Below are positions 10,701 through 57,400 of a DNA stretch of 64,000 nt, piece after piece; positions within the stretch are counted from its first letter, which is position 1, and each line of letters starts with the position of its first letter. The DNA comes from an uncultured Rickettsiales bacterium (GTDB lineage Bacteria; Pseudomonadota; Alphaproteobacteria; Rickettsiales; UBA1997): the NCBI GenBank assembly GCA_944391075.1, contig CALXSG010000002.1:27869-91868 (forward strand). The letters run 5' to 3'. A model generated the notes under the pieces. That model worked only from the letters and a program-made list of their open reading frames with translations, was not told where the DNA came from and searched no databases. The translations under genes were made by a program, and so were the position numbers.

Positions 10701-11311
10701 ATAAATGTTCTAGAAATTTCAAATGTAAAATTAGGAATTCTATTTCCAAATTCAGCAAGTGGCAAATTTTCAAAAACTATATAACATAAGCCACGATAAG
10801 CTGGCGTTGTATCAATGCCTTCAACACTTTGAATTAAACTGTCAGGTTCTTGTGTTTCCGTGCCTTTATAAAATCTATATGTATATTTTGATATATCAAT
10901 CAAATCTGTATCAGCCCATACTTTCTTTAATTCTGTTACCTCACCTTTACAAATACCAATAGCAACATTTGCATAATAATAATATTCTATATTGTTTTGA
11001 TAAACCTTCTTACCACCCTTCCCTGCTTTATAAGACGTAACATAAGATTTTTGTACTTCTTTTATATCAGTTGCCCATATAATATTTCCAGCAATTCTAT
11101 TTGTGCCATACAAAGTTGGTATTACTTCATTATAGCCCGACTTTTGCACAGTTAAATCACTCAGTCTTGAACTAACTTTATCTTTTTTCCATGTTGTATC
11201 ATCTTCATTATCAAATAAACTATATAAAGGATGATTTTTAAAAGTATTTATTATTGAATTTTTTTTATTATTTATTTCACCTACAACCGTCGAAATGAAA
11301 AAATTTGCCAT
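7706..11311 (-). CDS. GTA ORFg15-type phage tail / host-specificity protein with TIM-barrel-like glycoside hydrolase domain
   Basis: N-terminal 'LSDLTVQKSGYNEVIPTLYGTNRIAGNIIWATDIKE' matches the conserved start of RcGTA g15 homologues. Central hydrolase-like region ('FVGIDAYFPLTD', 'IWFTEYGFASVDG'). 1201 aa with no interruption. Confidence 0.8.
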   Translation of the reverse strand: MANFFISTVVGEINNKKNSIINTFKNHPLYSLFDNEDDTTWKKDKVSSRLSDLTVQKSGYNEVIPTLYGTNRIAGNIIWATDIKEVQKSYVTSYKAGKGGKKVYQNNIEYYYYANVAIGICKGEVTELKKVWADTDLIDISKYTYRFYKGTETQEPDSLIQSVEGIDTTPAYRGLCYIVFENLPLAEFGNRIPNFTFEISRTFIEEEEVENVIEGVNIIPGCGEFVYDTEVVGKVDGFIWYERWHPSDSITRINQNNNNGVADVIVATQQLKEKLPNCKWVAPVVVWFGDSLNIANCKVEPRVEFKLDPIYPTQETKPEPWKVAGIERKNANLISSDNGKIRYGGTVSDNSIVRYLKYLKDEGFSIMFYPMIFMDLENKPWRGYLTGSASDVENFFNKTNGYNAFILHYANLVKDYCDAFIIGSEMRDLTKLYIESIENDITKRVYPAVECLKNLADSVRNIVGENVKIGYAADWSEYHHTDGGWYNMDTLWASDNIDFVGIDAYFPLTDKKEELITKDDIKNGWTSGEGYDWLYTDENRTTKEEVEAKYAWKNIDWWWKNYHVNPNGEQTAWVPQSKKIWFTEYGFASVDGTTNEPNKFYDPESIDGGFPRFSEGKIDYFAQRKAIQATQEVWANSHMVERKFLWCWDARPYPYFPSQLNIWSDGSVWHYGHWLNGKMGNLMFSNMINNLFDDAEIDKKYLGGIDIYDSIDGLALNSKTTVNEVLSILQKVFFFDYYEKDGKLYIFSKRNESVLKIFEDELIEIEDGKYFEADIIGEDELPYKLDISYINKDLDYQISNSYAERVSVNSEKKDEVSLPVVITAYKAKQIADKLLYSNWLEKNIYHFKLPPKYLYLTAGDVITLNVNNTDLILRIANILVNDDNTIEVKAVRCDNSLYSFKKEEENFDNITLITPTSKTIVEVFELPAIKNLDTPEVFFATNGEENGWGGCAVYYAKTGSSNFTVINENRFNSTVGFCLNKLNDARSYYFDYKNSLYVAFNKNIDTSILESAEMFDFLDGANMALIGNEIIQFKKIELQSDGSFKISQLLRGQFGTEEYISTHEDNEKIIILNENIISNTFTNADVNISYDFKIITFKDIFENSTDKTLKIEGKNLKELKPVHIKITKNNDGYKISWVCRRRGIYNWVDGEETIYNRNYTLNILNRYGVVRSVEIQDETEWLYTNEMILEDNIDNWAVEII

Positions 11312-37783: not shown

Positions 37784-40732
37784 TTGACAATAAATAAAAT
37801 ATCTCTATCTTTAATTGCATTATATTTAATATTACACTATATGAATATATATAAAAAATACATTATATGGCTAATTTTAGGAATTACTCTAAGTGTCTTT
37901 ATATTTTATACTTATATTAGAGACGTATTTTATATTAGAGACATATTTTATAATACTTTGGATTATTTTTTACTCTTAATAAAAAGGCTAGATAATTATT
38001 TTTTACACAATACTGAAAAAACAGAGCATTTAAGCTATGCAATATCGGTTATTACAGCAATAATAGTTGCTATTCCAGCATTTCTTTTGCCATTATTTTT
38101 TAATGTTTTTGAAGATAAAATAAAAAACAATACTGCTAATCCTGATTTTATTTTTGATGAAATAATGAAAAAATATTCCATTAAACTTTTTTATATATTA
38201 ATTTTTTTATTTATAGTACATTTATTTTTACAAAATTATATTAAAATTTTATATTATCATTCATTAACTTTATCTATAAATGCAATATTAACAATTTCTA
38301 TTATTTATATAACTTATAAATTATTAAATGCAATTATATTAAAAGAATCACGATTGCTTATAAAAGAAATTTATGATTTTTCTATCAAAAATTTTAAAGA
38401 AAATAAAAAAGATTACAAAATAATAGTATATTTATATTTAAAAGATTTAAATAAATTTATTTTAGATAACAATATAGATAATTTTAATTCGTATTTAAAA
38501 GATTTTAAAAAATATATTATTAATATTAATACTATTGAATTTTATCTTAGTTATGTAGAAAATACTCAAATTAATAAATATCAAAATTTTAAATCTCTAA
38601 TAACAGATCAATCAGTTATATTGATTAATCAAAATGAAAATTTTTTTAATAATATACTAAAATTTTATTTAAATCAAGATACCTATAATTTTATAATAGA
38701 AAATCATAAAAAAGATTTTTTATATCAACATTTTATTTATTGTTTTCAATCATTAAATGATATATTGTGGAAACAAAATATTGAGACTAAAAGCAATTAT
38801 ATAATTTCTAATAGTTTAAAAAATCAATATCAATTAGATATTTTTACCAAAAATTGCAAAAATATAATTGAATATATAGAAATTCAATATTTTTTAATAC
38901 AAAAATATAAAGATAAAGATTTTGATTATTTAATAAAAATTTTTTATGCTATTCAATTGCCATCTTTAAATATTTATATTTATTGTATTTGTCAAAGTCT
39001 TATATCTGGTAATAAAGATTCAATATATGAATTTATAGAAGCTTTAATTTTTTATTGTGATAAATTTTTTATTAATAATAGCTTGTCTAAAAACGAATAT
39101 TGGGATATAAGAACTCAATTAATAATAGATCCTAATAACCAAAGTATTATAAATTCTTTAAAATATTTTGATTGTTTTGATTATATAAATATGATAAGTG
39201 CTAATAATGAAATAGAAAATTATAATAATAAAAAAGATATTAAATCACAATTATTTATATTAAAACTTTATAAATATAAATTAGATACAATTAAAAAAAT
39301 TATAGTAAATAAAAGTATTTTATATAAAGATTCTGAAATTATGGATTATTTAGTGAGAAATACATTTGTGGATTCTATATTTGATATGTTTAATATTTTT
39401 AGTTCAAAATATTTTGAATATTTAGAAGAAAATAAAAATGAAGATATATTTATTTTGAATGTAATTAAAAAATTAGTTAAATTTCAATTAGAAAATAGAA
39501 AAAATTATCAAATATATAATATAAATATTTTTAATAATGGAAATAATTTATTTTTTTCAATATTAAGATTATTTATTTTTAATAAGCAATATCCTTTATC
39601 AAATATTCGTATTAACAATCAAGATAGAATAAAAATTTTTTTTAAAAATAGCTATTCTGGAGTAGGAAAAGTTATGCCTATCTCCTATTACGATAATTTA
39701 GAATTTGGTATAATACTTTTATTGTATTATTCAATAGATATAAATACTGATAATTTAATAAAAACTTTATTATTTTTATTTAATGATTATATCGACATGG
39801 TAGTTTATAAAGAAAATTTTATTTCATTTAGAAATATTTTGAACAACATTAAATATAATAATTATAAAGAATATATAGAAAATGTTTTTGAAAATTTTTC
39901 AGAAGAAATTTTTAATAATAATAAACAAAAATTATTAGATAAACTAGAGAATATTATTAAAAAATTAGATGAACTGGAATTTAAGAGAATAAAAAATAGT
40001 AAAATAAATGAGACTAAAATTAATAATATTATAAATAATATTAAAGAAGAATTTAAAAATAAAATATCAAGTTATTTAAGCTTTTTTAATAAAATAGATT
40101 TTAATAAAAGTATTAAAAGAATTAAAGAAAATTTTTTTAGTATTAATATTCAAGATAAAAAATCTAATTTTTTAGAGAATAATTATGTTTATTATGATTA
40201 TTTAGATGTTTATAATTACTATTTTTATGATAATTTTACAATAGAATGTATTAGAAAACTTTTATATGAAATAAAAGAAGTAGAAAATACAAAAAATACA
40301 CAAAATATTACATTAAAAAAATTTATTGATGAATACCTTAATGATAATGAAAATTTTATATTTGCATATAGATGGGAAATATTAAACGAGAAAATTTTTG
40401 ATTTTAAAAGAACAACTGATTATTTTTATGATTCTAATAAATTTATTGCTTTTGTAAATAAAATTAATAATTTTAATTTTAGAGACGTACCTTTCCTTGA
40501 AAAATTCGAAAACCCAGTAGTTATAATACCAAAGAAATTCTTTAAAGAATTGGATGTTGACTTGAATTCTTTAAGCACTAATTTTGAAGAAGAAGAGAAT
40601 AATAAAATTATAATCACTATTTCTTGTTATTATAAAGTAATATTTGATAATCAAGATAAAAATAATAAAAATATTCAAGATAAGTTAGATGGTTGCTTCA
40701 ATGAAATTAAAATCATTAATATAAAAGATTAA
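37784..40732 (+). CDS. Large hypothetical membrane protein (N-terminal polytopic region plus ~790-aa Asn/Ile/Lys/Tyr-rich domain)
   Basis: 982-aa uninterrupted ORF with 5-6 hydrophobic segments in the first ~190 aa. No recognisable motif. Internal 6-aa tandem duplication 'YIRDVF YIRDIF'. Confidence 0.5.
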   Translation: MTINKISLSLIALYLILHYMNIYKKYIIWLILGITLSVFIFYTYIRDVFYIRDIFYNTLDYFLLLIKRLDNYFLHNTEKTEHLSYAISVITAIIVAIPAFLLPLFFNVFEDKIKNNTANPDFIFDEIMKKYSIKLFYILIFLFIVHLFLQNYIKILYYHSLTLSINAILTISIIYITYKLLNAIILKESRLLIKEIYDFSIKNFKENKKDYKIIVYLYLKDLNKFILDNNIDNFNSYLKDFKKYIININTIEFYLSYVENTQINKYQNFKSLITDQSVILINQNENFFNNILKFYLNQDTYNFIIENHKKDFLYQHFIYCFQSLNDILWKQNIETKSNYIISNSLKNQYQLDIFTKNCKNIIEYIEIQYFLIQKYKDKDFDYLIKIFYAIQLPSLNIYIYCICQSLISGNKDSIYEFIEALIFYCDKFFINNSLSKNEYWDIRTQLIIDPNNQSIINSLKYFDCFDYINMISANNEIENYNNKKDIKSQLFILKLYKYKLDTIKKIIVNKSILYKDSEIMDYLVRNTFVDSIFDMFNIFSSKYFEYLEENKNEDIFILNVIKKLVKFQLENRKNYQIYNINIFNNGNNLFFSILRLFIFNKQYPLSNIRINNQDRIKIFFKNSYSGVGKVMPISYYDNLEFGIILLLYYSIDINTDNLIKTLLFLFNDYIDMVVYKENFISFRNILNNIKYNNYKEYIENVFENFSEEIFNNNKQKLLDKLENIIKKLDELEFKRIKNSKINETKINNIINNIKEEFKNKISSYLSFFNKIDFNKSIKRIKENFFSINIQDKKSNFLENNYVYYDYLDVYNYYFYDNFTIECIRKLLYEIKEVENTKNTQNITLKKFIDEYLNDNENFIFAYRWEILNEKIFDFKRTTDYFYDSNKFIAFVNKINNFNFRDVPFLEKFENPVVIIPKKFFKELDVDLNSLSTNFEEEENNKIIITISCYYKVIFDNQDKNNKNIQDKLDGCFNEIKIINIKD

Positions 40733-42753: not shown

Positions 42754-44571
42754 ATGATAGTAGAAAAAATTTTTAAAAATATTCAAAATGATCTTTCTTT
42801 ATTTAGTAATGAAGAAATTAGTAATATAGATAATGTAATTTATCAAAAAGATGATGGTAAATATTATATAAAATCAAATTCAAAAGGTGAAGAAGAAAAA
42901 ATGATTTATAGTGAAAAAAAATCTTCACCAGAAGAAATTGTTAGACAACTTTGCTTAAATAGATTAATCAATAAATATAAATATCCTAAAAATTTAATAG
43001 ATATTGAAACAATGGTAAATTTTGGCAGAGAAAAAAAGAGAGCTGATATAGTAATATATAAAGACGATAAAATAACTCCTTATATTATTGTTGAAGTTAA
43101 AGCTCCAAATGTCAAAAACGATGTAAAACAATTAAAAAGTTATTTGAATGCAGAAGGTGCTGAAATTGGTATTGTAATAAATGGGCAAACTGACGAAATA
43201 TTATATAGACCATATCCAAAAGATTTTTCATTACTACCAGACATACCAGAATATAAAGAATCACCAGAAGATGTTTATAGCAAAAAATTCAAATACAATG
43301 AATTAAAAGAACCAAAACAATTAAAACAAGTAATACAAAATTTAGAGGATGCAATACTTGCAAACTCAGGTTTTGATACTTTTGACGAAATTTTTAAAAT
43401 AATTTATGCAAAACTTTATGATGAAATGCAAGGTCAATACGACGATAATTATATTCTAGAATTCAGAGCCAGAAAAGAAGCTGATATTACTAAAAAAGCC
43501 ATAGACAAATTATTTGACAAAGCAAAAAATGAATGGCGAGATATTTTTGACAATAACGACAAAATAAAATTAAAAGATACTCACTTATCAAGTATTGTTG
43601 CAGAATTACAAGAATATAAATTATTAGGTTCTAATTTACAAGTTATTGACGATACATTTGAATACTTAATTCCAGATGTAGCAAAAGGTAAAAAAGGGCA
43701 ATATTTCACACCTAGACATGTAATTGATATGTGTGTCAAAATGCTAAATCCTAAAAAAGACGAGTTTGTAATAGACACAGCTTGTGGTTCTGGTGGTTTT
43801 TTAATCCACACAATGAAATATGTTAACCCTAAAAATTTCTCAGCCTATGCCACCAAACATTTATGGGGGATAGATTTTGACGAAAGAAGTTCAAAAATTT
43901 CAAAAGCAATGATGTTAATTGCTGGCGATGGAAAATCTCATATTTTCAAAGAAAACTCATTAGATTCTTCTTCTTGGGGCGACAACATAAAAGTAAATTT
44001 AAACAACGAAAAATTAGCAGATGAAAATTATAGATATTTCAATTTTGACATATTACTTGCCAACCCACCATTTGCCGGTGAAGTCACAGAAAAAAGTATT
44101 TTAGCAGAATATCCAAATGTTGTAAAAGAAAAACAAACAAAAATTTCAAGACACTTACTTTTTATCGAAAGAAACTTAAATTTTGTCAAAGATGGTGGAC
44201 GACTAGCCCTTGTCCTTCCACAAGGTGTATTCAACAACACCAGTGAAAAATACATCAGAGACTTTTTGGCAAACAAGGCCAGAATCATAGCAGTTATAGG
44301 ACTTGACACCAACACATTCAAACCACACACAGGCACAAAAACAAGTGTATTATTTTTACAAAAATGGGACAAAAACACCAACCCACAAAAAGCAGACTAC
44401 CCGATCTTTTTCGCAGTAAGTGAAAAATCCGGAAAAGACAACAGCGGAGAATACATTTACAAAGAAATCGATGGAAAAAGAGTTTTGCAACACGACTTAG
44501 ACGAAATAGCCAACGAGTTTATAAAGTGGGCTAAAACCGAAGGTTTTGAGTGGTGGAGTGGTAATAAATAA
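42754..44571 (+). CDS. hsdM: N6-adenine DNA methyltransferase (HsdM-like) fused to an N-terminal PD-(D/E)xK nuclease-like domain
   Basis: aa 98-116 'ADIVIYKDDKITPYIIVEVKAP' gives D...ExK (nt 43045-43101). SAM motif 'VIDTACGSGGFL'. Catalytic 'NPPF' at nt 44062-44073. Confidence 0.8.
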   Translation: MIVEKIFKNIQNDLSLFSNEEISNIDNVIYQKDDGKYYIKSNSKGEEEKMIYSEKKSSPEEIVRQLCLNRLINKYKYPKNLIDIETMVNFGREKKRADIVIYKDDKITPYIIVEVKAPNVKNDVKQLKSYLNAEGAEIGIVINGQTDEILYRPYPKDFSLLPDIPEYKESPEDVYSKKFKYNELKEPKQLKQVIQNLEDAILANSGFDTFDEIFKIIYAKLYDEMQGQYDDNYILEFRARKEADITKKAIDKLFDKAKNEWRDIFDNNDKIKLKDTHLSSIVAELQEYKLLGSNLQVIDDTFEYLIPDVAKGKKGQYFTPRHVIDMCVKMLNPKKDEFVIDTACGSGGFLIHTMKYVNPKNFSAYATKHLWGIDFDERSSKISKAMMLIAGDGKSHIFKENSLDSSSWGDNIKVNLNNEKLADENYRYFNFDILLANPPFAGEVTEKSILAEYPNVVKEKQTKISRHLLFIERNLNFVKDGGRLALVLPQGVFNNTSEKYIRDFLANKARIIAVIGLDTNTFKPHTGTKTSVLFLQKWDKNTNPQKADYPIFFAVSEKSGKDNSGEYIYKEIDGKRVLQHDLDEIANEFIKWAKTEGFEWWSGNK

Positions 44572-44580
44572 GGAGAGTAA

Positions 44581-45456
44581 ATGCATATATTTGATATTAT
44601 AAAACAAAATTATGATATAAAAGAAGAATTTTTAGAAATAAGAAATTTATTTAATAAAATAAAATTAAACTATTGTGGTTTCTTATATACAATAGAAGAA
44701 TTAGCGGATAAGAATTTTTCAAAATGGAAAGGTAGAAATACGATGATTAATTGTTCAAAATATAAAAATAAATTAGAACAATATATTTTAAAATGTTATT
44801 CAACCAAAAAAAATGGTATTAATATAATTGATTATAATAAACCAGAAATTATTATTATATATTTAGAATATTATATAAATATATCTCATTTTGTTAATTC
44901 ATTAAGATTATTTAATCTATTCATTTCTAATCCTAATGATTTTCAAATTATGAGTGAAAATATAAAAATATTATTGGAGCATTTGAATTATCAAAAAATA
45001 AATGATAATGATAATATTTTATTAATTCCAAAGAATCCAGAAGCTATTGTTGTTGCAGAACAAACAAAAAATATAGAGATAGCAAATGCTATACTAAAAT
45101 ATAATCACTACTCATTAAAAGGAAATCTTGAGGACAAAAGAAATTTGCTAATTTCTATTGCTAATGAATATAATGGTTTTTTACATAGTAAATTGGCAGG
45201 TTTTAATAAAGAACTTGATATGGCCATATTTTTAATAAATAATTGTCATATAAGACACAATAATAAAAGCGGAAATGAAGAAAAAAAATTAATAGCTAAC
45301 CTAAAAAATGAAGATCTTGAAAAATTATATGATGATACATATCAACTAATATTATTCTGTATTTTAGCTAAAACAAATGTTGAAAGAATGAAAAATTTTG
45401 AAGAAAAAGTAAAAAAACCAATTATAAATGGAGGTAAAAAATGCAATACTCAATAG
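44581..45456 (+). CDS. Hypothetical protein embedded between the methylase and specificity genes
   Basis: Strong SD (AAGGAG) 5 nt upstream. The 3' end overlaps the hsdS start by 16 nt. Helical. No motif identified with confidence ('NNCHIRHNNKSG' noted). Confidence 0.6.
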   Translation: MHIFDIIKQNYDIKEEFLEIRNLFNKIKLNYCGFLYTIEELADKNFSKWKGRNTMINCSKYKNKLEQYILKCYSTKKNGINIIDYNKPEIIIIYLEYYINISHFVNSLRLFNLFISNPNDFQIMSENIKILLEHLNYQKINDNDNILLIPKNPEAIVVAEQTKNIEIANAILKYNHYSLKGNLEDKRNLLISIANEYNGFLHSKLAGFNKELDMAIFLINNCHIRHNNKSGNEEKKLIANLKNEDLEKLYDDTYQLILFCILAKTNVERMKNFEEKVKKPIINGGKKCNTQ

Positions 45457-46844
45457 TTAATTTAAGCGAAGTTAGAGAAAATTCAGATTTTAGAATTGAC
45501 GCTGAATATTGGAAACCTGAATATTACGATTTGGTAAAATTATTAAATTATAAAAAAAGTAAAGATTTTTTTTATTATACTGAATTTATTAAAAAAGGTA
45601 TATTTGATATTTCCCCTAAAGAATATACGAATCACAATGGAATACCATTTGTTAGATCTGGAGATATAAAAAATATTTTTTTATCATATAATAATATGGT
45701 TCAAATAAATCAAATAGTGCATAAAAAAGAAATAAAAACAGAATTAAACAAAAATGATCTTGTACTATCGAAAGTTGGAACTATTGGTAACTTTGGTATT
45801 AATTTTGAAAAAGATAAAATAAATTTTAGTCAAAATGTTATTGGTATAAAAATAAAACAAGAATATAAAAATATTAGTGGATTTTTATTATCTTATTGTA
45901 ATTCAAAATATGGACAAAATCAAATTAAAAAAAATGTAACTGGACAAGTTCAAGAAAAGTTGACATTGAATGATATTAAATTTTTAAAAATTATAGATTT
46001 ATCTAGATTATTTCAAGAATCTATTGCTTCACTTGTCAACAAATCTTACACACTACGAGAATCTGCCGATACACTATACAAAGAAGCAGAAGATATTTTG
46101 CTTGAAGAATTAGGCTTTAAAGATTATCAAATAAAAAATCAAAAGTATTTTGTTAAAAATTTATCAGATACTCAAAAAGTTAGTAGAATTGATGCTGAAT
46201 ATTTTCAACCAAAATATGAAAATTTAATTAATAAAATAAAAGAATATAAGGGGGGATATAATATTCTTGATAATATTTGTAAAATAAAAAAATGCATAGA
46301 ACCTGGAAGCTCTGAATATAAAGAAAATGGCATACCTTTTATTAGAGTTAGCAATTTAGGTATTTTTGATATAAATTCAAATAATCAACAATATGTTAGT
46401 GAATTATTTTATAATAAAAATATTGAACATCAACCAAACAAAAATGAAATTTTATTGTCAAAAGATGGAACATTAGGTACTGCATATTGTTTATATAAAG
46501 AACCAGATAAAATGATTTGTAGTGGTGGAATTGTAAGATTAATTAATACAAAAATACAACCATTGTGTTTAACTTTGTTTTTAAATTCTATTATTTCTAA
46601 AATGCAAATAGATCAAAAATCAGGTGGAGCATTAATATCGCATTGGCTAATTGATGATATCAAAAATCTTCTCATTCCCATTTTGCCTGACTCTATTCAA
46701 TCCACAATCTCTTCAAAACTCCACAAATCCTTTCTTGACAGGCAAAAGTCTCTTGACTTGTTGGCTGTGGCGAAAGGGGCTGTTGAGGTTGCTATTGAAG
46801 ATGGGGAAGATGTGGCTTTTGGGTATATTGATAATAATTTATAG
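45441..46844 (+). CDS. hsdS: Restriction-modification specificity subunit (HsdS-like, two TRDs)
   Basis: Duplicated conserved motif 'FRIDAEYWKPEY' (N-terminus) and 'SRIDAEYFQPKY' (middle), each followed by a variable TRD and a coiled-coil spacer. Confidence 0.85.
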   Translation: MQYSIVNLSEVRENSDFRIDAEYWKPEYYDLVKLLNYKKSKDFFYYTEFIKKGIFDISPKEYTNHNGIPFVRSGDIKNIFLSYNNMVQINQIVHKKEIKTELNKNDLVLSKVGTIGNFGINFEKDKINFSQNVIGIKIKQEYKNISGFLLSYCNSKYGQNQIKKNVTGQVQEKLTLNDIKFLKIIDLSRLFQESIASLVNKSYTLRESADTLYKEAEDILLEELGFKDYQIKNQKYFVKNLSDTQKVSRIDAEYFQPKYENLINKIKEYKGGYNILDNICKIKKCIEPGSSEYKENGIPFIRVSNLGIFDINSNNQQYVSELFYNKNIEHQPNKNEILLSKDGTLGTAYCLYKEPDKMICSGGIVRLINTKIQPLCLTLFLNSIISKMQIDQKSGGALISHWLIDDIKNLLIPILPDSIQSTISSKLHKSFLDRQKSLDLLAVAKGAVEVAIEDGEDVAFGYIDNNL

Positions 46845-46995
46845 TCTTTTGTGGTAAATATTGAATATGAAGATATAGCTAGTTAATTGTATTTTGTATT
46901 GATAATAATTTATAGTTTTGTGTGGTAAATGATATAATATTAAAAATATAATTATTTGATTGTATTGATAATATTATTTGTGGGGTGTGTAGTAT
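46826..46995 (+). repeat. Three ~70-bp-spaced echoes of the hsdS 3' terminus
   Basis: 'TATTGATAATAATTTATAGTCTTTTGTGGTAAAT' (46830), 'TATTGATAATAATTTATAGTTTTGTGTGGTAAAT' (46898), 'TATTGATAATATTATTTGTGGGGTGTG' (46963). Confidence 0.7.
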
Positions 46996-47301
46996 GTTTG
47001 TTTTGTTGTGTTGTAAAATGTCTAATTGGGGTTTGTGAGTTATAATAAATGTGCTGTGGTTCTGTGATGTGGCGATTTTGTAAAGTATTAATAATTTTGT
47101 AATATTGTGGGGATGTTATAAAACTTTGTTTTATTGCATTAACTAAGTTATGGTGGATTTTTTTATAATTTTTAGTATAAATTAATTTTTGTAATGATAT
47201 TTATTGATAACATTTGATGTTATTTATCTAAATATTAAGTATAATATTGTATATTTTTGTTGATAAATTAATGTTTGTCAAATGAGTATTTATTGATTGA
47301 G

Positions 47302-47397
47302 AATTTAGAAAATAAATATAAAATATTTATTCTAGTATAGTAAAAAATTTATGGAAGTATAAATTTAGTATTTTTGTATTTATAATTTAAATTTTCT
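47302..47397 (+). repeat. 96-bp direct repeat, copy 1
   Basis: Near-identical to 47530-47626 ('AATAAATATAAAATATTTATTCTAGTATAGTAAAAAATTTATGGAAGTATAAATTTAGTATTTTTGTATTTATAATTTAAATTTTCT'). Confidence 0.9.
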
Positions 47398-47529
47398 TCT
47401 CGTGGTGTTAGGTATCTTACCCAACACCCAATGCTATCAAAAATTGAATTTATAATTTAAATTGATTTTATAAAACTTCACCATTTACAAGCCTTCGATA
47501 TATACTCAGGAGACCCTATACCACAGTAT

Positions 47530-47626
47530 AATTTAAAAAATAAATATAAAAATATTTATTCTAGTATAGTAAAAAATTTATGGAAGTATAAATTTAGTAT
47601 TTTTGTATTTATAATTTAAATTTTCT
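47530..47626 (+). repeat. 96-bp direct repeat, copy 2
   Basis: Differs from copy 1 by one extra A and one G/A change. The copies bracket a 132-bp unique segment. Confidence 0.9.
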
Positions 47627-48035
47627 CAACTCCCTGCAATTTTGTTGCTTTCGCCTTTATAAATGAAGGTAAGGAAAAAAGAATTTCGTCGCTCTCCCTT
47701 ACGAAGGGAAGTAAAGAGAAGAGGGTTTTGTCGTTCCCAATTATAAATGGGGCAAAGGATGGTGAATTCTTTTTTTGTAAAAGGATGAACTACTGGTTAT
47801 TTGTGGATTGCCACAGGCCTTCGGCCTTTGCAATGACGAAGGGGCAAGCGATGGTGAATTCTTTTATTTTTCTATGAATAAATAAGGAAGTAGTGGTTTA
47901 TGGATTGCTTCGCTTCGCTCGCAATGACGAAGGGGTGGGTGTGTTTATGGATTGCTTCACTTCGCTCGCAATGACAAGTGGATGAAGGGTAGTGAATTTT
48001 TTTATTTTTTCTATGAATGAATAAGGAAGTAGTGG

Positions 48036-48123
48036 TTTGTGGATTGCTTCGTCGTTTCACTCCTCGCAATGACAGCACACACAAACTCGTCATTGCGAGA
48101 GTTGCTTGCAACTCGTGGCAATC
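48036..48123. mobile_element. Palindromic element A (right end truncated)
   Basis: TTTGTGGATTGCTTCGTCGTTTCACTCCTCGCAATGAC-agcacacacaaactc-GTCATTGCGAGAGTTGCTTGCAACTCGTGGCAATC. Confidence 0.6.
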
Positions 48124-48260
48124 TCAGTATGGGATACAATTAATCATTCATGGAATTTTTTTTCTTTTCTGTTTTTGTATTGACTATTAGTGATTTGTGG
48201 GGGATTTGCCTCCCTTTGTAAGGGGGGAAGTTGCGAAGCAACAGGGGGGTTGAGAGAGAA

Positions 48261-48284
48261 ATTGAAAATTGAAAATTGAAAATT
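48261..48284 (+). repeat. ATTGAAA heptamer tandem tract (one of five)
   Basis: 3-4 tandem copies of the heptamer ATTGAAA. Similar tracts lie at 48442-48464, 48543-48572, about 48798-48820 and 48899-48928, flanking the conserved module of each macro-repeat. Confidence 0.8.
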
Positions 48285-48347
48285 AGTTTTTTAATTTGAT
48301 AAATAATAGTAAATTCTTTTTCTTTTTTGTTTTCGCATTAACTTTTT

Positions 48348-48441
48348 GTGGTTTATGGATTGCTTCGTCGTTTCACTCCTCGCAATGACAGTACCCCCAA
48401 GCCTGTCATTGCGAAGGCCGAAGGCCTGTGGCAATCCATAA
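48348..48441. mobile_element. Palindromic element B (complete)
   Basis: TTATGGATTGC..CGCAATGAC / GTCATTGCG..GCAATCCATAA arms, with an AGGCCGAAGGCCT inner hairpin in the right arm. Confidence 0.65.
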
Positions 48442-48706
48442 GAAATTAAAATTGAAAATTGAAGCACAAAGTGGGAAAATGATATGCTTGCATAATCATT
48501 TTAGCTTGTCGTCCCACGAAGTGCGAAACGAACAAAGCATAAGAAATTGAAAATTAAAAATTGAAAATTAATATTTCATCAAAAATTAGTTCTTTAATTT
48601 GATAAATAATAGTAAATTCTTTTTCTTTTCTGTGAATGAATAAATATTAGTGGTTTATGGATTGCTTCGCTTCGCTCGCAATGACAAAGGGGTGGTGGTT
48701 TGTGGT

Positions 48707-48797
48707 TTATGGATTGCTTCGTCACCTTGCTTCTCGCAATGACAGTACCCCAACACCGTCATTGCGAGAGTTGCTTGCAACTCGTGGCAATCCATAA
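48707..48797. mobile_element. Palindromic element C (complete)
   Basis: Same termini as element B. The left inner segment differs (TCACCTTGCTTC). The right arm carries GAGTTGCTTGCAACTC. Confidence 0.65.
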
Positions 48798-49106
48798 GAA
48801 ATTAAAATTGAAAATTGAAGCACAAAGTGGGAAAATGATAAGCTTGCATAATCATTTTAGCTTGTCGTCCCACGAAGTGCGAAACGAACGAAGCATAAGA
48901 AATTGAAAATTGAAAATTGAAAATTAATATTTCATCAAAAATTAGTTCTTTAATTTGATAAATAATAGTAAATTCTTTTTCTTTTCTGTGAATGAATAAA
49001 TATTAGTGGTTTATGGATTGCTTCGCTTCGCTCGCAATGACGAAGGGGTGGTGGTTTGTGGTTTATGGATTGCTTTTTGCTTGCAAAAATAAGGGGGCGA
49101 GTGGTG

Positions 49107-49193
49107 TTTGTGGATTACTTCGTCACCTTGCTTCTCGCAATGGCGGTATCCCTACATTGTCATTGTAAAATCAAAGGTTCTGGCAATCTATAA
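49107..49193. mobile_element. Palindromic element D (degenerate)
   Basis: TTTGTGGATTACTTCGTCACCTTGCTTCTCGCAATGGC...GTCATTGTAAAATCAAAGGTTCTGGCAATCTATAA; decayed copy. Confidence 0.5.
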
Positions 49194-49339
49194 AAATTAG
49201 AAATAAAAAATAAATTTTGTACTTCCATAATTATTTTATTGATATATAATAAAAATTTTTTATAGAAATATTTAAATTTTGCCCTTAAAAATAAAAAAAA
49301 TGTTAAAAAATTATGAAATTTATTTATATTTGAAGAATA

Positions 49340-49435
49340 AAAACAAAAAGGGGTTTTAAGCCCCCTTTTCGGATCAAGTCTCGTTATTATGCAGAAATAA
49401 TTCTAGAGTTTATTTCATTAACTACCACTACAATC
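49340..49435 (-). ncRNA. Candidate ~95-nt small RNA defined by a promoter-like site and an orphan intrinsic terminator
   Basis: On the minus strand: TTGATT (49469-49464), 16 nt spacer, TAAAAT (49447-49442). Further downstream, hairpin GGGGGCTTAAAACCCC (49346-49369) followed by TTTTTGTTTTT. No ORF is associated. Confidence 0.3.
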
Positions 49436-49577
49436 ACTTTGATTTTAATGTATAGTTTTTAATAATCAACTATTTATATATATTTTTTTAAATATACAAC
49501 CTATTTATTATTATATATAAAAAACAAAATTTTAATTATTTTAAATAATATATTGATTTTTAAGATTTTATAAAGTG

Positions 49578-51493: not shown

Positions 51494-54400
51494 TTATGAT
51501 GATTCACGAACTTGTTCTGTCTTCTTTACTTTAACATTATCAACAAGTATATTATTTGCTTTTAAATCAAGATCTTTTGTAAAAACTTTAGATAGATCCT
51601 CTGCAAGAAGTTTTGTAGTATCTTTTTTAGATTTTTCACTATCATTATATACTTCATTACCTAATGAAGGTTGAGCTTCTAATAAAGGTTTATTTTCAAC
51701 AAAATTTTTATTTTTATCCATAATATTTTCGTCTTTTTCTTTATGTTTTTGCTTATTTCTTTCAATAACCTTTTTAGACAATAACGATATAAGACCAACC
51801 CCTATAGCTACAACAATACCTATTGGTCCGCCTACAATAAAACCTAAAGCAGCGGAACATGAAGCAGTAGTAGTAATGAATTTTTTATCTTTTTGATCTC
51901 TATGAATTTTTTGCATTTCCTCTTCCATTTCAATCTTAAGCTTTTCTTTTTTCTCCTGCGTTTCTATTTCTTCTTTTTCTTTTTTTTCTTTATCTTTTTT
52001 TCTCTTCTCAGCATCTTTATTTTCCGCTACATATTTTAATTCGTAATTTACTTCTTTTATCGTTTTATTCGCTACATCTTTTATAATATCTTTAAGCTTT
52101 TCAATTGTCTGTTCTTCCTCTTTACACCTTTTAAATTCTCTCATAGACAATTTAATTCTATTTAAATCTTCACCCGTCTCCCCTTTTAAAAATTCAGGAT
52201 AATCTTGAACTGTTTGTCTATAAGTATTTAAAATTTGAAAATTTTCTACTCCAAGTTCTATTATTTCATTAGTTGCTCGCGCAGCCCATATACCACCAGA
52301 AACATTATCATATTGCCTACCATCATTTCTTGAATCAACTATTAAATGTTCTTTATCTTTATCAAGATAACAATCTAAAACCCAATCATCACCTTCCTTT
52401 TTAGTAGTAACTTTTGTAATACTTGTATTTTTTAAAAGTTCCTCTAATTCTTTGTTATCACACTTACTATCATCATATTTTTCTGGTGATAAAGAAATCA
52501 ACATTTTCTTATCTTCTAAATATATATAACTTGGTCCATTTGCTTTATCACTTGTGAAATACTTTGCTTTTTGTGTATCATGACTTTGTAAATATTCTTG
52601 GATAGCTAATAATTGTAATTCATGAAGATTGGTCTTAGATAATTTAATACCAGTATCATCATAGCAATTACACTTATCATAAAAATCACCATCCTTCTTA
52701 AGAATTTCATCTAATTCTTTTATATATTCCATAGTATTCGTTGCATCAGGCGAATTAGCCAAATAATCCTTTTCATATTTTGCACTATTTCTAAAATTTC
52801 GAATTATAGTTCCACTATTTAGACATGTTATTAATTCATTGTTTTTGATAGTAGCTAACATATCAGGATCTGATTGTTCTATAAATAATTCTACTAACTT
52901 ACGTAGTTCTGGATTATTTTCTATATCTTCAAATGGATCATAATTTTTATTTATTAATTGCGACTCACTTTCCTGAATTATTTCATTATCAACATCAGTA
53001 TCAACCTCAACTGGCATATCAAAATCTTTAACATCAACTAAATCTTTATTGTCTGTTATAGTTTTTGTTGTAACTTTTTGAATTCTCTTCAATTTTCTTA
53101 AACCGCCAGCATTACATTTTATCTTAGTTCTTATAGATTGACCCCTAGTTTTAAATTTAATACTTAGATTATCTTTATTTTTTATTAAATTATATATTTG
53201 TGCAGCATCCTTACCAGTTATATCTATGTTATTTTTTGTAGAAGCATCAAAAATTTCCAAATTTTTTATTTTTCTACTATTCTGCATTTGATATATTTGA
53301 TCAGCTAACTCAACACGATCTACAAAATTTTTTAATGAACTATCTTCAAAACCAATATCATTAGATATAATCTCTGCACCATCTGAAGCTATATATACAG
53401 CTATTAATTTATCTGTATCTTTAAAACATTTTACTTTTTTATGTAATTTTTTATAATCTATAAATCCTGGTTTTTTATCATCTTCAACTAAGCCTATTGG
53501 ATTAAAATGCACTCCATCAGGTGTCTTGTAAAAAGTTATTTCTCTTCCATTTATCGTAGTCTTACGACTGGCTGTATTATATTTTATCCGTGATAATACT
53601 TCTTCTGCTTCTTTACTTGGTTTGGAATCTATAGTATTTCTTATATACTGATCAACATTATCAAATGTATGATCATTCAAAGGATTATCATAATTAGTAT
53701 TAAGCCAATGCTCAAAATGTTCATTAGATTCGCCATATCGACATGTTGCTAACACAGGCGCATTTACAGCTTTAAAGTATCTTTCTAAATCTTTATCTCC
53801 TGCTACTAAAAAACTACTATTATCAGCACGCGTAATTCGTATTTTACTTTCATCACCATCTGCTCTTATTTTCTTTAAACGGTTATAAAGTTTTAATTTT
53901 TCAAAAGATTGATAAAAAGAATCAAAAAACCTGTCTTTATCTCCAGCTCGTGCTGCGCTTGCATATAATGGAATTGCAGATGTGGTAATTCCATCTCCAT
54001 TTATAGCATATATTTGCATATTTGGTTTGTCACTATATTTTTGACAAATAACATCTAATATTTCCTTTGTGTTTTTTCCTTTAAATGCAACGTCTTGTAC
54101 AGGCTGGTCACGTCCACCTTGACGAGTAAATAATTGATATTCCTCATTACAATGTTTTGGTTTTATTTTTACACAACCTGTATCATCAACAATTAATGAA
54201 TTTTCTAAAAAACCACCACTGATACCCTGAGCCAACAAAGGATGTGGAGCGCACTCAACTTTTTTTTGTGCGTCTCTCATACTTTTTACATTTGCAGTAT
54301 CATATTTAATTGTTTGATTGCCACAAAGTTTTATTGTATGTTCTCTCGGATCAATTGCATCAGGCACATCTTCACGCCTAAATGTATCATCTACGTTTTG

Positions 54401-57400
54401 TACATTATCTACATATTTATTAAGTGTGTCGTTTAATTCATTTTGTACTATATGATTAAGACATTCTTTAAAAGCAACTAAACTATTAATAGCTACTCTT
54501 TCTTCTACTATTGACCTTCTCGTGTCTTCTTTAACTATATATACATTCTCTCTAGTATTTAATAGTTTAGTATATAGATTTTCCTTTTCATTAATTGCTA
54601 AACGACCCACACCTTCAATACCAAAGAAATAAGTTTGTCCACTTGTCTTATCTTCAATATACAATTGATGACTATCTTCAGTAGTATTTAATTCCAAACC
54701 AGCTTCCTTTAAAGCCTTTTGTAATTCTTCTACATCTTGTTTTTGTTGTTCCTTAATATCTGTTAGTTTTGCACTAATTATATCATAACCTTTATCTGGT
54801 TCTAAAACAGTTGGTTTACCGCCATACACTATTTGTACAGTTTTATTTTCTTCCCTACCTACATTCTTCTTATAACAAATTGCTTTATATAAGTCTTGAT
54901 TATTATTACATGGACTACCATCACTATATTGAACTTGTATAAAGCCTTGTTCTTGCATATCTAATATTGTAGCAAAATTATCAAAATTTTTTTGAAAATT
55001 ATCTCTAGTAATATACTGATTACCATTATCTTGAAATTCATGTGAACATATATAATCTGCATTTTTGTAACGTAATTTAATAGGTTGATAATTTGATAAC
55101 GGATTACCAGTAGTCAAAAAATTAAATTTTTCTTGTAATGTATTAAGTTTATTATTTGTCCACAAACCTTCTATATAACAATCGTCTTTCTGTTCACCAT
55201 TTACCTTAATATATACTTTACCATTCCCATCCATCTGATCAATATCCATATCATTAAATACTTGAACATCTTGAATTGCTAGTTTAAAATCAACTATAAT
55301 TCCTGCATAACGATCATTATCATACATATCATCATATCCATCATCATTGAATGAAGGTAATGTATATGTTATTTCTTCACCTGATTTATGTTTATAAATT
55401 AGTTGAGTCTTTGTATCATCATCATGTTTTGTTTGTTCTATACCATCCTTCAAAAATTTATAAGTATATTCAGATCCAGTGTTATCTTCCTGGCCTTTTG
55501 ACCGATAATCGTCTAAATCATGCAACAAAAAAAACCTCTTATACGCATACTCTATATCTTTTTTTATTATACCTATTCGACCACTTAAAACATTATCATA
55601 AAAGTCAATATCATATGATGCATCTTCATCGAATTGTTGTTCTCTAATTTTACAATTACGCAAATCTTGTGCTTTTAAATTTCGACCTTTGTCATGTATA
55701 TCTTTCGTACAGTTTACTCCATTTTCATCTATAAAATAAAACTTATTACCTGATTCCTCTATAAAACATTGTGAATCATCATCATATGTTGTCAATAACG
55801 CATTCTTAAACGCATCTACTCTTCTTTGTACTTCTTTTGCTCCTAATCTTACCTCTGTCAGTGCATTATCAGTGTGTCTTATTACATTGCTTTTAGTGGA
55901 TATAGTAGATTGTTTTTCTCCAATAAATAATTCAATATCTTGTTTATTTTGTAATGCTGTATGCAATATTTGCTGCACTATTTGATAGCTATTACTTCCA
56001 TTAGTTTTATCAATTCCAATTTCTTCTTCACCAATTTTTATTTTGTCTACATCTGAATTAAATATAGAACTTGCTATATAACAACTTGCAATTTGTTGTT
56101 CATATATCTTAGATAACTCTTTTGCCCCTTGTCCATGTAACCATGTTTTTGGTTCTAATTCATATCTTTTTCCATTAACTTCAAATGCAAAATTTACACT
56201 GCCATCTTCTTTTAAACAATTAGGTAAAATAGTAGATAAATTTTTATTTGTACAATCATCATTAGCTAATACAATCTCACACGAGAAAGCACCATCACCA
56301 CCAAATTTTCTTCCATTATCTGTTTTAATTTGTTGTAAAATAGTACTTGAGCGTATTTGTTGTTTATATGCTTCAAGACCATCTGCTTTGGCATCTTCTT
56401 GCATTGTTTCAATTGCCTTTTGCCATCTTGTTTTTGTATCGTATTGTATTCTTCGCTCTTGCCCATTAACATAATACGACATTGTACAAGGTTCTTGTTC
56501 ATATAACGCTAATAAAAAATTTTCTTTATCTGACTCTCTGTCTTTTACTTTATAAGTAATTTTTCCATGTTTTTTTTCTATATCCGTTGACAACGCATCA
56601 AAACCTGTAACTAGGTGTGCTGACTCAAATGATTTAGCAACCCTATCAACGAACGTTTCACATGGTAATAAATGATCAAATTTTCGTTGTTTTCCTAATA
56701 CTGTACATGTAAAAGATTTCTTATTAAATGCTATATCAAAATACATTTTTCGAATATCTTTTTCTTCTGAAGCTGATGTTATTCCTTGACTACGATCTAC
56801 ACTTATAGTTAAATTATCTTTATCTTGAAAATAATTATGTGATAAAGTCTCTTGAATTTTTCGAACATCAGTACACAAGATATCTGCTGCTGTTGCAAGA
56901 AAATCTTCTTTAGGTTCTCGTATATCAAAACCAATTTGTTTTTGACCAATTTGGACATTACAAGCTTCTCCGCTATTAAAAATATCATCTAATTTAATAT
57001 CTGGTATTCGTTCATGACCATAACGATCTCGTGCCTTCTTCATCATCTCAGCTACTTCACAGTGAAATAAAAATTGTGTCAATTTTTTTTCTTCTTCTTC
57101 TTTTAATTCTTCGTAATTATGAGATTCAACATAAGTCCCAATATGATTTAAATCTATAGTTTCTTTAATTTGCCTTCCTTGATCGTCGTTATATTGTAAT
57201 GCTATCTTTCCTCCATTACTACTAGATACTTGATCAAATCTTTCTCTAAGATTTCTTCGCATTATATCATTATTCCATGCTTCATTATCTTTTATATTTT
57301 GAAAAATATCATTTAATTGCGCATCTTCAAATGAAAAATAATAATTTGTCCAACTAGTACCACTTTCTATAAACTTTGTAAATATATTAAAATACGGAGG

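What the first reader, a model, noticed from the sequence alone, without database searches (positions are those of the whole stretch)
42754..46844. HsdR-less RM module: PD-(D/E)xK::gamma-MTase fusion plus HsdS-like subunit, a candidate BcgI-like (Type IIB) system
The three genes are tightly coupled (38 nt after lepA, a 9-nt gap, then a 16-nt overlap). No hsdR follows; instead comes 2.4 kb of repeats. The 605-aa 'HsdM' is ~100 aa longer than usual because of an N-terminal domain with a D98...E114-x-K116 nuclease motif ('ADIVIY...IIVEVKAP'). That domain sits ahead of standard SAM ('DTACGSGGF') and NPPF motifs. A nuclease-methylase polypeptide working with a separate two-TRD specificity subunit is the BcgI (Type IIB) design. 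Such a system would be self-sufficient for restriction without a translocase.
Basis: partly seen in the sequence, partly recalled or inferred. Interest (0 to 1): 0.7.

Follow-up and report, generated by a model that had tools for sequence, protein, structure and literature searches.

The report
Translocase-free restriction-methylase plus specificity subunit
This is an intact two-protein restriction-modification system of the BcgI/BsaXI (Type IIB-like) design, a known kind that turns out to be very common, and it carries an unexplained third gene that elsewhere sits inside classical Type I restriction operons.

Summary
Three co-directional ORFs follow lepA: a 605-aa protein (42754-44571), a 291-aa protein (44581-45456) and a 467-aa protein (45441-46844). 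The spacings are as stated, and 2.7 kb of non-coding repeats follow.

The 605-aa protein is an N-terminal PD-(D/E)xK nuclease (Pfam HSDR_N_2), a helical connector, and a gamma-class N6-adenine methyltransferase. Its closest solved relative, by sequence and by predicted fold, is the RM subunit of the Type IIB enzyme BsaXI. BsaXI's four mutationally proven catalytic residues align with E85, D98, E114 and K116. Those residues are as conserved across 78 genomes as the NPPF methylase motif.

The 467-aa protein is a two-TRD HsdS-like subunit. A sister strain with a nearly identical RM gene has both TRDs replaced.

Across 80 genomes the only conserved neighbour of the RM gene is S. No HsdR was found in those loci or in the window.

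This is a new member of a known kind.

The middle gene belongs to an uncharacterised family with no sequence or fold match. It is usually found next to hsdS in classical Type I operons.

The parts
42754..44571 (+). RM subunit (605 aa): a fusion of nuclease, helical connector, gamma-class N6-adenine methyltransferase and C-terminal helix
   Evidence: ORF. Pfam HSDR_N_2 plus N6_Mtase. PADLOC MTase_I PDLC03034 matches at 549 bits over the full length. The best PDB hit is RM.BsaXI, E 2.9e-32. The AF2 model has pLDDT 85. The top Foldseek hits are BsaXI RM chains at E about 1e-24.
42928..43248 (+). PD-(D/E)xK nuclease domain (aa 59-165). Predicted catalytic residues are E85 (43006-43008), D98 (43045-43047), E114 (43093-43095) and K116 (43099-43101).
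   Evidence: HSDR_N_2, E 2e-27. The residues align with BsaXI E73/D90/E105/K107, which are essential for BsaXI cleavage. They are invariant in 48 homologues and present in 77-78 of 78 genomes.
43249..43641 (+). Multi-helical connector between the nuclease and the methyltransferase (aa 166-296)
   Evidence: The AF2 model has helices at 190-205, 209-229, 243-260 and 275-285. The segment aligns with the BsaXI RM chain in Foldseek and phmmer (stretch 190-358).
43642..44532 (+). Gamma-class N6-adenine DNA methyltransferase domain (aa 297-593). SAM motif I is D341-F349 (43774-43800). Catalytic motif IV is NPPF 437-440 (44062-44073).
   Evidence: N6_Mtase, E 1e-38, and Eco57I, E 2.5e-13. Both motifs are present in 78 of 78 homologues.
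44497..44559 (+). C-terminal helical tail (aa 582-602). This is the presumed contact with the coiled-coil conserved regions of S.
   Evidence: AF2 helices at 582-595 and 599-602. A lone C-terminal helix that bundles with CR1/CR2 is described for the Type IIB 'RM + S' group in PMC11997821. The role proposed here is an inference.
44581..45456 (+). X291: a 291-aa protein of an uncharacterised family, carried as cargo inside the RM operon. It has a strong Shine-Dalgarno sequence (AAGGAG).
   Evidence: ORF, RBS. No Pfam, NCBIfam, PADLOC, PHROG or PDB sequence match. The AF2 model has pLDDT 84, yet Foldseek finds no match in PDB or BFVD. The family has 1182 clusters at 50% identity. Members are usually embedded in Type I operons next to hsdS.
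45441..46844 (+). S subunit (467 aa) with two TRDs. Approximate layout: N-terminal conserved stretch aa 1-23, TRD1 aa 24-197 (45510-46031), central conserved region aa 198-273 (46031-46259), TRD2 aa 274-412 (46259-46675), C-terminal conserved region aa 412-467.
   Evidence: PADLOC Specificity_I matches down to 1e-33. NCBIfam MAD5 matches at 3.5e-48, below its cutoff. A profile of 36 homologues hits Type I S subunits and S.BsaXI in the PDB. The domain borders come from comparison with the sister strain L090.

Best explanation
The 605-aa and 467-aa genes encode a self-contained restriction-modification enzyme without a translocase, of the BcgI/BsaXI (Type IIB, 'RM + S') design.

Inferred mechanism, by analogy with BcgI and BsaXI:
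- Two RM subunits dock through their C-terminal helices onto one S subunit.
- The two TRDs of S read a bipartite target.
- The gamma-class methyltransferase domains put m6A on each half-site of host DNA.
- On unmodified DNA the tethered N-terminal PD-(D/E)xK domains cut at fixed short distances from the site, without ATP-driven translocation.

Specificity is changed by swapping TRD cassettes, as seen between sister strains.

The 291-aa gene in the middle is not part of this core. It is one of many unrelated cargo genes that occupy the slot between the RM and S genes. It belongs to an uncharacterised family that otherwise sits beside hsdS in classical Type I operons. It is most likely an RM-associated accessory or second-line defence protein.

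What is shown: domain identities, catalytic-residue conservation, gene neighbourhood and TRD swapping. What is inferred: stoichiometry, cleavage geometry, in vivo activity and any role of X291.
For: (1) Architecture. HSDR_N_2 nuclease plus N6_Mtase lie in one polypeptide. The AF2 model is confident, with pLDDT 85.

(2) Closest solved relative. This is RM.BsaXI by sequence (E 2.9e-32, with three aligned stretches including the nuclease). It is also RM.BsaXI by fold (E about 1e-24 over about 650 columns, against 1e-16 for Type I HsdM).

(3) Catalytic residues. E85/D98/E114/K116 align with BsaXI E73/D90/E105/K107. Each of those is essential for BsaXI cleavage, and the authors report them conserved across Type IIB enzymes.

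(4) Purifying selection. These four residues are present in 77-78 of 78 homologues from different phyla, the same level as NPPF. The nuclease domain is nearly as conserved as the methyltransferase domain (51% against 56% mean identity).

(5) Gene neighbourhood. S is the only conserved neighbour, present in 75 of 80 loci: directly downstream in 47, and one or two genes further in 32. No other neighbouring family occurs in more than 10 loci. No HsdR was detected in any locus or in the window. The closest relative outside this species (L004) has AdhE after S.

(6) RMS fusions. Some family members (1100-1180 aa) appear to carry the specificity part in the same polypeptide and have no separate S gene next to them. 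This resembles single-chain Type IIB enzymes. Their C-terminal parts were not analysed.

(7) Signs of activity. All three reading frames are intact. The sister strain L090 is 95-96% identical in the flanking DNA and nearly identical in the RM protein. Both TRDs of its S gene are replaced, with no DNA similarity left.
Against: - No biochemical or methylome data exist for this system.
- BcgIA itself could not be compared.
- In sequence the RM protein scores higher against the NCBIfam model for MAD2 of the eight-gene MADS system (297 bits, below the 720 cutoff) than against BsaXI (115 bits). Relatives can therefore work within larger systems.
- BsaXI also needs residues in a C-terminal 'paddle' for cleavage, and this protein has no paddle. 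According, the other Type IIB enzymes with known sequence lack a paddle as well.
- REBASE-derived PADLOC models file the family under 'Type I methyltransferase'.
- Only 64 kb of this genome was searched for hsdR.
Confidence: 0.7

Rival explanations
1. Solitary M2S methyltransferase. The pair only methylates a bipartite site, for epigenetic regulation or protection. The N-terminal PD-(D/E)xK domain is inactive, autoinhibited or used for something other than restriction.
For: Annotation pipelines call these proteins only 'N-6 DNA methylase'. The host is a reduced-genome Rickettsiales bacterium, where phage pressure may be low. No cleavage data exist.
Against: The four catalytic residues are as conserved as the methylase motifs across phyla, and the nuclease domain is under comparable constraint. 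A vestigial domain would not be expected to behave this way. In BsaXI the homologous domain is the proven nuclease.
Confidence: 0.12
2. Part of a larger system whose other components lie elsewhere. Either it is a Type I variant served by an unlinked HsdR motor, or it is a MADS-like multi-gene system of which only the MAD2-like and MAD5-like genes are in this locus.
For: NCBIfam's best hits are MAD2 (E 1.9e-88) and MAD5 (E 3.5e-48). PADLOC places the family among Type I methyltransferases. In eight of 80 loci, mostly from Poribacteria, an ABC/OLD-type ATPase gene with a weak MAD3 match follows S. The rest of this genome was not searched.
Against: Both MADS scores are far below the curated cutoffs (297 against 720, and 165 against 400). 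No other MADS-like gene and no HsdR is in the window. No partner other than S is conserved across 80 genomes. An HsdR carries its own HSDR_N nuclease (see the HsdR genes), so a nuclease fused to M would be redundant.
Confidence: 0.1
3. Decaying or silent relic. The genes are intact by chance but are not expressed or not functional in this reduced genome.
For: No recognisable terminator or strong promoter is specific to the module. The RM gene has only a weak Shine-Dalgarno sequence. The locus is followed by 2.7 kb of repeat-rich non-coding DNA.
Against: About 4.1 kb of open reading frames is intact in a genome of about 25% G+C, where stop codons arise easily. X291 and S have strong Shine-Dalgarno sequences. 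The RM protein is nearly identical in a sister strain whose TRDs were exchanged cleanly in frame.
Confidence: 0.05

Closest known systems
BsaXI (Type IIB, RM + S; PDB 8w0p/8w2p/8w2q; PMC11997821)
   Same: The domain order is the same: N-terminal PD-(D/E)xK nuclease, helical connector, then gamma-class methyltransferase. The four catalytic nuclease residues align. The two-TRD S subunit is separate and of similar size (467 aa against 476 aa). BsaXI is the best fold match.
   Different: BsaXI RM is 916 aa and has 'knob' and 'paddle' insertions, and paddle residues D816 and E823 are needed for its cleavage. The 605-aa protein has neither insertion and ends in a lone helix. Foldseek identity is only about 22%.
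BcgI / BaeI group of Type IIB enzymes (2 RM : 1 S)
   Same: As described in the literature, this group has a short RM subunit, an EcoKI-like methyltransferase fold, a lone C-terminal helix and a separate S subunit. It needs no translocase and no accompanying methyltransferase.
   Different: No direct sequence comparison was possible because BcgIA was not available in the tools. [quoted passage not shown] The cleavage pattern here is unknown.
Classical Type I RM (HsdM/HsdS/HsdR, e.g. EcoKI, EcoR124I)
   Same: The S subunit has the TRD1-CR1-TRD2-CR2 layout and diversifies by TRD swapping. The methyltransferase core is homologous to HsdM. Variable cargo genes sit inside the operon.
   Different: There is no HsdR, and the RM protein has no HsdM_N domain. 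The nuclease is fused to the methyltransferase, whereas in Type I it is fused to an SF2 motor.
MADS (methylation-associated defence system; MAD2 methyltransferase and MAD5 specificity subunit)
   Same: MAD2 and MAD5 are the best NCBIfam matches. The MAD2 model also aligns with the N-terminal nuclease-like region.
   Different: The scores are well below the equivalog cutoffs. The ORFs of 460 aa or more scanned in the window gave no sign of further MADS-like genes, although the smaller ORFs were not scanned against the MADS models. Most related loci are plain RM-S pairs.

Membership tests
Type IIB restriction-modification, 'RM + S' group (BcgI/BsaXI-like) | One polypeptide carries an N-terminal PD-(D/E)xK nuclease followed by a gamma-class N6-adenine methyltransferase | tested here: met
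   Pfam HSDR_N_2 at 59-165 and N6_Mtase at 297-593. Full-length sequence and fold matches to RM.BsaXI.
Type IIB restriction-modification, 'RM + S' group (BcgI/BsaXI-like) | The nuclease catalytic residues equivalent to BsaXI E73, D90, E105 and K107 are present | tested here: met
   E85, D98, E114 and K116 align with them. They are present in 77-78 of 78 homologues.
Type IIB restriction-modification, 'RM + S' group (BcgI/BsaXI-like) | A separate specificity subunit with two TRDs and conserved coiled-coil regions | tested here: met
   PADLOC Specificity_I matches. The family profile hits Type I S subunits and S.BsaXI. The TRD and CR layout is visible in the sister-strain comparison.
Type IIB restriction-modification, 'RM + S' group (BcgI/BsaXI-like) | No ATP-dependent translocase subunit belongs to the system | tested here: inconclusive
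   None was found in the 64-kb window or within 10 kb of homologues in 80 genomes. The rest of this genome could not be searched.
Type IIB restriction-modification, 'RM + S' group (BcgI/BsaXI-like) | Cleaves both strands on both sides of a bipartite site at fixed distances | not testable with these tools
   Needs purified enzyme and run-off sequencing of the cleavage products.
Type IIB restriction-modification, 'RM + S' group (BcgI/BsaXI-like) | Methylates adenines in both half-sites without an accompanying methyltransferase | not testable with these tools
   Needs a PacBio or Nanopore methylome. No second methyltransferase gene lies next to the module.
Classical Type I RM | An HsdR subunit with an SF2 motor and nuclease is encoded with or for the M and S genes | tested here: not met
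   No HsdR in the window and none near the 80 homologous loci. The whole genome was not searched.
Classical Type I RM | HsdM with the HsdM_N helical N-terminal domain | tested here: not met
   There is no PF12161 match, and the N-terminus is HSDR_N_2 instead. Classical HsdM genes in loci L084-L098 do carry HsdM_N.
MADS (eight-gene methylation-associated defence system) | MAD2 and MAD5 equivalogs score above the NCBIfam cutoffs | tested here: not met
   297 bits against a cutoff of 720, and 165 bits against a cutoff of 400.
MADS (eight-gene methylation-associated defence system) | The other mad genes (ATPase and the rest) lie in the same locus | tested here: not met
   The module is flanked by lepA on one side and by non-coding repeats followed by a HAD/Ldh-domain gene on the other. 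X291 matches no MADS model.
Type IIG single-chain enzymes (MmeI, BpuSI) | The target-recognition domain is fused to the RM polypeptide, with no separate S subunit | tested here: not met
   The RM protein ends about 25 residues after the methyltransferase domain, and S is a separate gene. BpuSI and DrdV are weaker fold matches.

The most novel reading that the evidence does not exclude
X291 may be the founding member seen here of an undescribed, structurally novel accessory component that works with M2S-type restriction complexes, however the nuclease is delivered (a separate HsdR or a nuclease fused to the methyltransferase). It might, for example, sense anti-restriction proteins or modulate restriction. 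That would make this locus a three-component system rather than a plain BcgI-like pair.

A second reading is also not excluded. The HSDR_N_2-methyltransferase plus S family has thousands of clusters and is annotated as methylases or Type I M subunits. It could be a large, overlooked clade of translocase-free restriction enzymes, which would make the Type IIB design far more common than the 28 enzymes listed in REBASE (figure taken from PMC11997821).
Probability: 0.3. Interest if true: 0.6.

Novelty: new member of a known kind. Interest (0 to 1): 0.35.

Why it matters
For this locus, the practical result is a better annotation. The "N-6 DNA methylase" beside lepA is predicted to be a complete restriction enzyme when paired with its S subunit. 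It sits in an uncultured gut-associated Rickettsiales bacterium, and its specificity was recently exchanged between strains.

More broadly, the same nuclease-methyltransferase plus S pair occurs in hundreds of genomes across bacterial and archaeal phyla and on conjugative plasmids. Annotation pipelines name it only as a methylase. PADLOC files it under Type I methyltransferases, so an RM-S pair lacking an HsdR-type nuclease would probably not be scored as a complete system (an inference from PADLOC's categories, not tested). [quoted passage not shown]

X291 adds a sizeable protein family with no known fold that is tightly linked to hsdS. That makes it a candidate for a new accessory function in restriction systems.

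Tried and rejected
- A PDB sequence search with the N-terminal 200 aa alone returned only weak, spurious staphylococcal-nuclease hits and did not recover BsaXI. The full-length search was informative.
- tblastn with two classical HsdR proteins, and with the RM and S proteins, found no pseudogene remnants in the 2.7-kb spacer or anywhere else in the window.
- X291 gave nothing in any library tried:
  - Pfam, NCBIfam and PADLOC.
  - A Pfam scan of 44 family members.
  - PHROGs.
  - PDB by single sequence and by profile.
  - Foldseek against PDB and BFVD.
- Two long X291-family proteins carry a LytR_cpsA_psr domain. I set these aside as possible gene-call fusions and drew nothing from them.
- Profile comparison of X291 with the cargo genes occupying the same slot in L011 and L004 showed no relationship, so the slot holds unrelated genes.
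- The MADS reading was rejected on scores and gene content.
- MANTIS (bioRxiv 10.64898/2026.09.23.753747) was checked and is unrelated in architecture.
- The promoter and terminator scan was uninformative in this AT-rich DNA: 54 promoter-like sites against 44.5 expected.


Full report
**Observation**

- lepA ends at 42715.
- A 605-aa ORF runs 42754-44571, a 38-nt gap after lepA.
- A 291-aa ORF runs 44581-45456, a 9-nt gap.
- A 467-aa ORF runs 45441-46844, a 16-nt overlap.

The 291-aa and 467-aa genes have strong Shine-Dalgarno sequences, AAGGAG and GGAGG. The next sizeable ORF starts at 49575.

The 2.7 kb in between has no tRNA, no Rfam match, and no HsdR or HsdS remnant. It is packed with short repeats.

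The window has about 25% G+C. Its closest relative outside its own species is an uncultured Rickettsiales MAG from human gut. Identical copies of the locus occur on gut-metagenome contigs.

**The 605-aa protein**

Pfam finds HSDR_N_2, a PD-(D/E)xK nuclease domain, at residues 59-165 (E 2e-27). It finds N6_Mtase at 297-593 (E 1e-38). There is no HsdM_N domain.

The best match among solved structures is the RM subunit of the Type IIB enzyme BsaXI (8w0p, E 2.9e-32). Three stretches align, and one of them covers the nuclease: query 57-126 against BsaXI 45-118.

Counting along that alignment, query E85, D98, E114 and K116 fall on BsaXI E73, D90, E105 and K107. In the BsaXI cryo-EM paper, alanine substitution at each of these four positions abolishes cleavage. 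The authors also state that the four are conserved across Type IIB enzymes (PMC11997821).

An AlphaFold2 model built on 48 homologues is confident, with pLDDT 85 and pTM 0.78. Its layout is nuclease, then a four-helix connector, then a Rossmann-type methyltransferase, then a lone C-terminal helix.

Foldseek against the PDB ranks the three BsaXI RM chains first, at E about 1e-24 over about 650 aligned columns. Type I HsdM proteins follow at 1e-16. The single-chain enzymes BpuSI and DrdV follow at 1e-13 to 1e-11.

**Is the nuclease domain maintained?**

In 48 homologues of 56-84% identity, the four catalytic residues are invariant.

In 78 homologues from 78 genomes, at 41-86% tblastn identity to the query, the counts are as follows:

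| Residue or motif | Present |
|---|---|
| E85 | 77/78 |
| D98 | 77/78 |
| E114 | 78/78 |
| K116 | 78/78 |
| NPPF | 78/78 |
| D, G, S, G and F of SAM motif I | 78/78 |

These genomes span Patescibacteria, Poribacteria, Elusimicrobiota, Campylobacter, Treponema, Cyanobacteria and an archaeon. Mean identity to the query is 51% for the nuclease domain and 56% for the methyltransferase domain. This argues against a vestigial domain.

**The 467-aa protein**

It matches many PADLOC Type I specificity models, down to 1e-33. It also matches the NCBIfam MAD5 model, but below its cutoff.

A profile of 36 homologues hits solved Type I S subunits and S.BsaXI.

The comparison with a sister strain (locus L090) is informative.
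- The flanking DNA is 95-96% identical, and the RM proteins are nearly identical.
- Two blocks of the S gene, 45510-46031 and 46259-46675, have no detectable DNA similarity.
- The N-terminal, central and C-terminal conserved regions of S are 76-96% identical.

This is a clean in-frame exchange of both TRDs. It is the usual way such systems change specificity, and it is a sign that the module is in use.

**Gene neighbourhood of the family**

The protein search saturated at 8000 clusters with E below 1e-10.

I called ORFs in the 80 genome loci fetched and clustered the neighbours.
- An S gene accompanies the RM gene in 75 loci: directly downstream in 47, second in 22 and third in 10.
- No other neighbouring family occurs in more than 10 loci.
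- phmmer with two classical HsdR proteins found no HsdR in any of these loci.
- None is in the window.

Genes that sit between RM and S are unrelated to one another. They include DUF3800, an AAA_15/AAA_21 ATPase, RhuM, Fic and several unknowns. This is the kind of cargo also seen inside the Type I operons examined here.

A few family members are 1100-1180 aa long with no separate S gene next to them. They resemble the single-chain Type IIB form, although their C-terminal parts were not analysed.

On a Klebsiella pneumoniae IncF plasmid, the pair is annotated "N-6 DNA methylase" plus "restriction endonuclease subunit S", with no R gene.

**Comparison with known systems**

The published picture of Type IIB 'RM + S' enzymes fits this module: 2 RM to 1 S, an EcoKI-like methyltransferase fold, a lone C-terminal helix that bundles with the S conserved regions, and no accompanying methyltransferase.

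It differs from BsaXI in lacking the knob and paddle insertions, and two paddle residues are needed for BsaXI cleavage. According, the other Type IIB enzymes with known sequence also lack a paddle.

I could not obtain the BcgIA sequence, so the BcgI link is indirect.

The NCBIfam MADS hits are well below the equivalog cutoffs: MAD2 at 297 bits against 720, and MAD5 at 165 bits against 400. Nothing in the window suggested further MADS components, so I do not file the module under MADS. The hits do show that related nuclease-methyltransferase proteins can serve in larger systems.

PADLOC's REBASE-derived model PDLC03034, labelled "Type I methyltransferase", covers the whole protein at 549 bits. 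Members of this family are therefore currently filed as Type I M subunits.

**The middle gene (X291)**

It has no match in Pfam, NCBIfam, PADLOC or PHROGs, and none in the PDB by sequence or by profile.

Its AlphaFold2 model is confident, with pLDDT 84 and pTM 0.75, and is mostly helical. Foldseek nevertheless finds nothing in the PDB or BFVD; the best E-values are 0.5-0.7.

A profile search of 1.84 billion cluster representatives finds 1182 relatives at E up to 0.001 and 850 at E up to 1e-10, nearly all 270-300 aa long.

Where homologues lie:
- In the contigs looked up individually, they lie directly after hsdS and before hsdR in classical Type I operons. One is stand-alone.
- In 48 further metagenome loci, about 41 are in Type I operons, and 27 directly follow hsdS. 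Five of the seven without an RM neighbour are contigs shorter than 4 kb.
- In the Rickettsiales sister strain, the RM-X-S order is kept.

X291 is therefore an RM-linked, S-adjacent gene of unknown function. Conserved motifs are LEYYxN, PKNP, LKYNHxSLxG, NNxxxRHNN and WYDExYQLLLFC.

My guess, with low confidence, is an accessory or second-line defence role. Nothing here shows a mechanism.

**Verdict**

Three things remain untested:
- cleavage on both sides of the site;
- the methylated motif;
- whether an hsdR exists elsewhere in this genome.

The system is a new member of a known kind. Two points add modest interest. This known kind appears to be far more widespread, and more poorly annotated, than the literature implies. 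And the locus carries a gene from an uncharacterised RM-linked family.

Noticed in passing
window 44581-45456 (+); also loci L084-L098 and L101-L148: X291 belongs to a family of about 280-aa proteins (1182 clusters at 50% identity). It has no Pfam, PHROG or PDB match and no Foldseek match despite a confident AF2 model. Members are nearly always embedded in Type I RM operons, usually directly after hsdS and before hsdR.
   Followed up: partly
window 46845-49574: A 2.7-kb non-coding stretch is full of short repeats. There are ten 'TGGATTGC...GCAATGAC' units of 28-37 nt, all between 47804 and 49041, where none is expected by chance. There is also a near-identical 292-nt duplicate at 48428-48719 and 48784-49075, and an exact 78-nt repeat at 47320-47397 and 47549-47626. 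No Rfam or tRNA hit. A diverged version is present in the sister strain L090.
   Followed up: partly
window 46826-46859 and 46897-46930: The last 19 nt of the S gene (including its stop codon) plus the 15 nt that follow are repeated 71 nt downstream at 94% identity. A weaker copy of 46809-46840 lies at 47066-47097. These may be scars of past recombination at the end of the S gene.
   Followed up: no
window 45510-46031 and 46259-46675, compared with L090 7927-8427 and 8655-9059: Both TRD cassettes of the S gene differ completely between two strains whose flanking DNA is 95-96% identical. X291 is only 71% identical between them, while the RM protein is nearly identical, so the recombination tract seems to begin right after the RM gene.
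   Followed up: partly
window 37784-40732 (+): A 982-aa ORF lies in DNA of only 15-17% G+C. It has no Pfam match, a hydrophobic N-terminus, and sits just upstream of lepA. The sister strain has a 685-aa ORF at the same place.
   Followed up: no
window 51494-60574 (-): A 3026-aa ORF has no Pfam domain at E up to 1e-4.
   Followed up: no
window 7706-11311 (-) and 3233-5755 (-): The first is a gene-transfer-agent-like tail/host-specificity protein (GTA_TIM, Phage-tail_3, Rcc01698_C). The second is a VirB4-type type IV secretion ATPase. Both are consistent with an alphaproteobacterial (Rickettsiales) origin.
   Followed up: no
loci L021, L042, L045 and other Poribacteria loci: In eight loci, mostly from Poribacteria, S is followed by a roughly 400-aa ABC/OLD-type ATPase gene with weak MAD3, PtuA and Eco8 similarity, usually followed in turn by a roughly 236-aa gene. 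This suggests an added ATPase module downstream of the RM-S core.
   Followed up: partly
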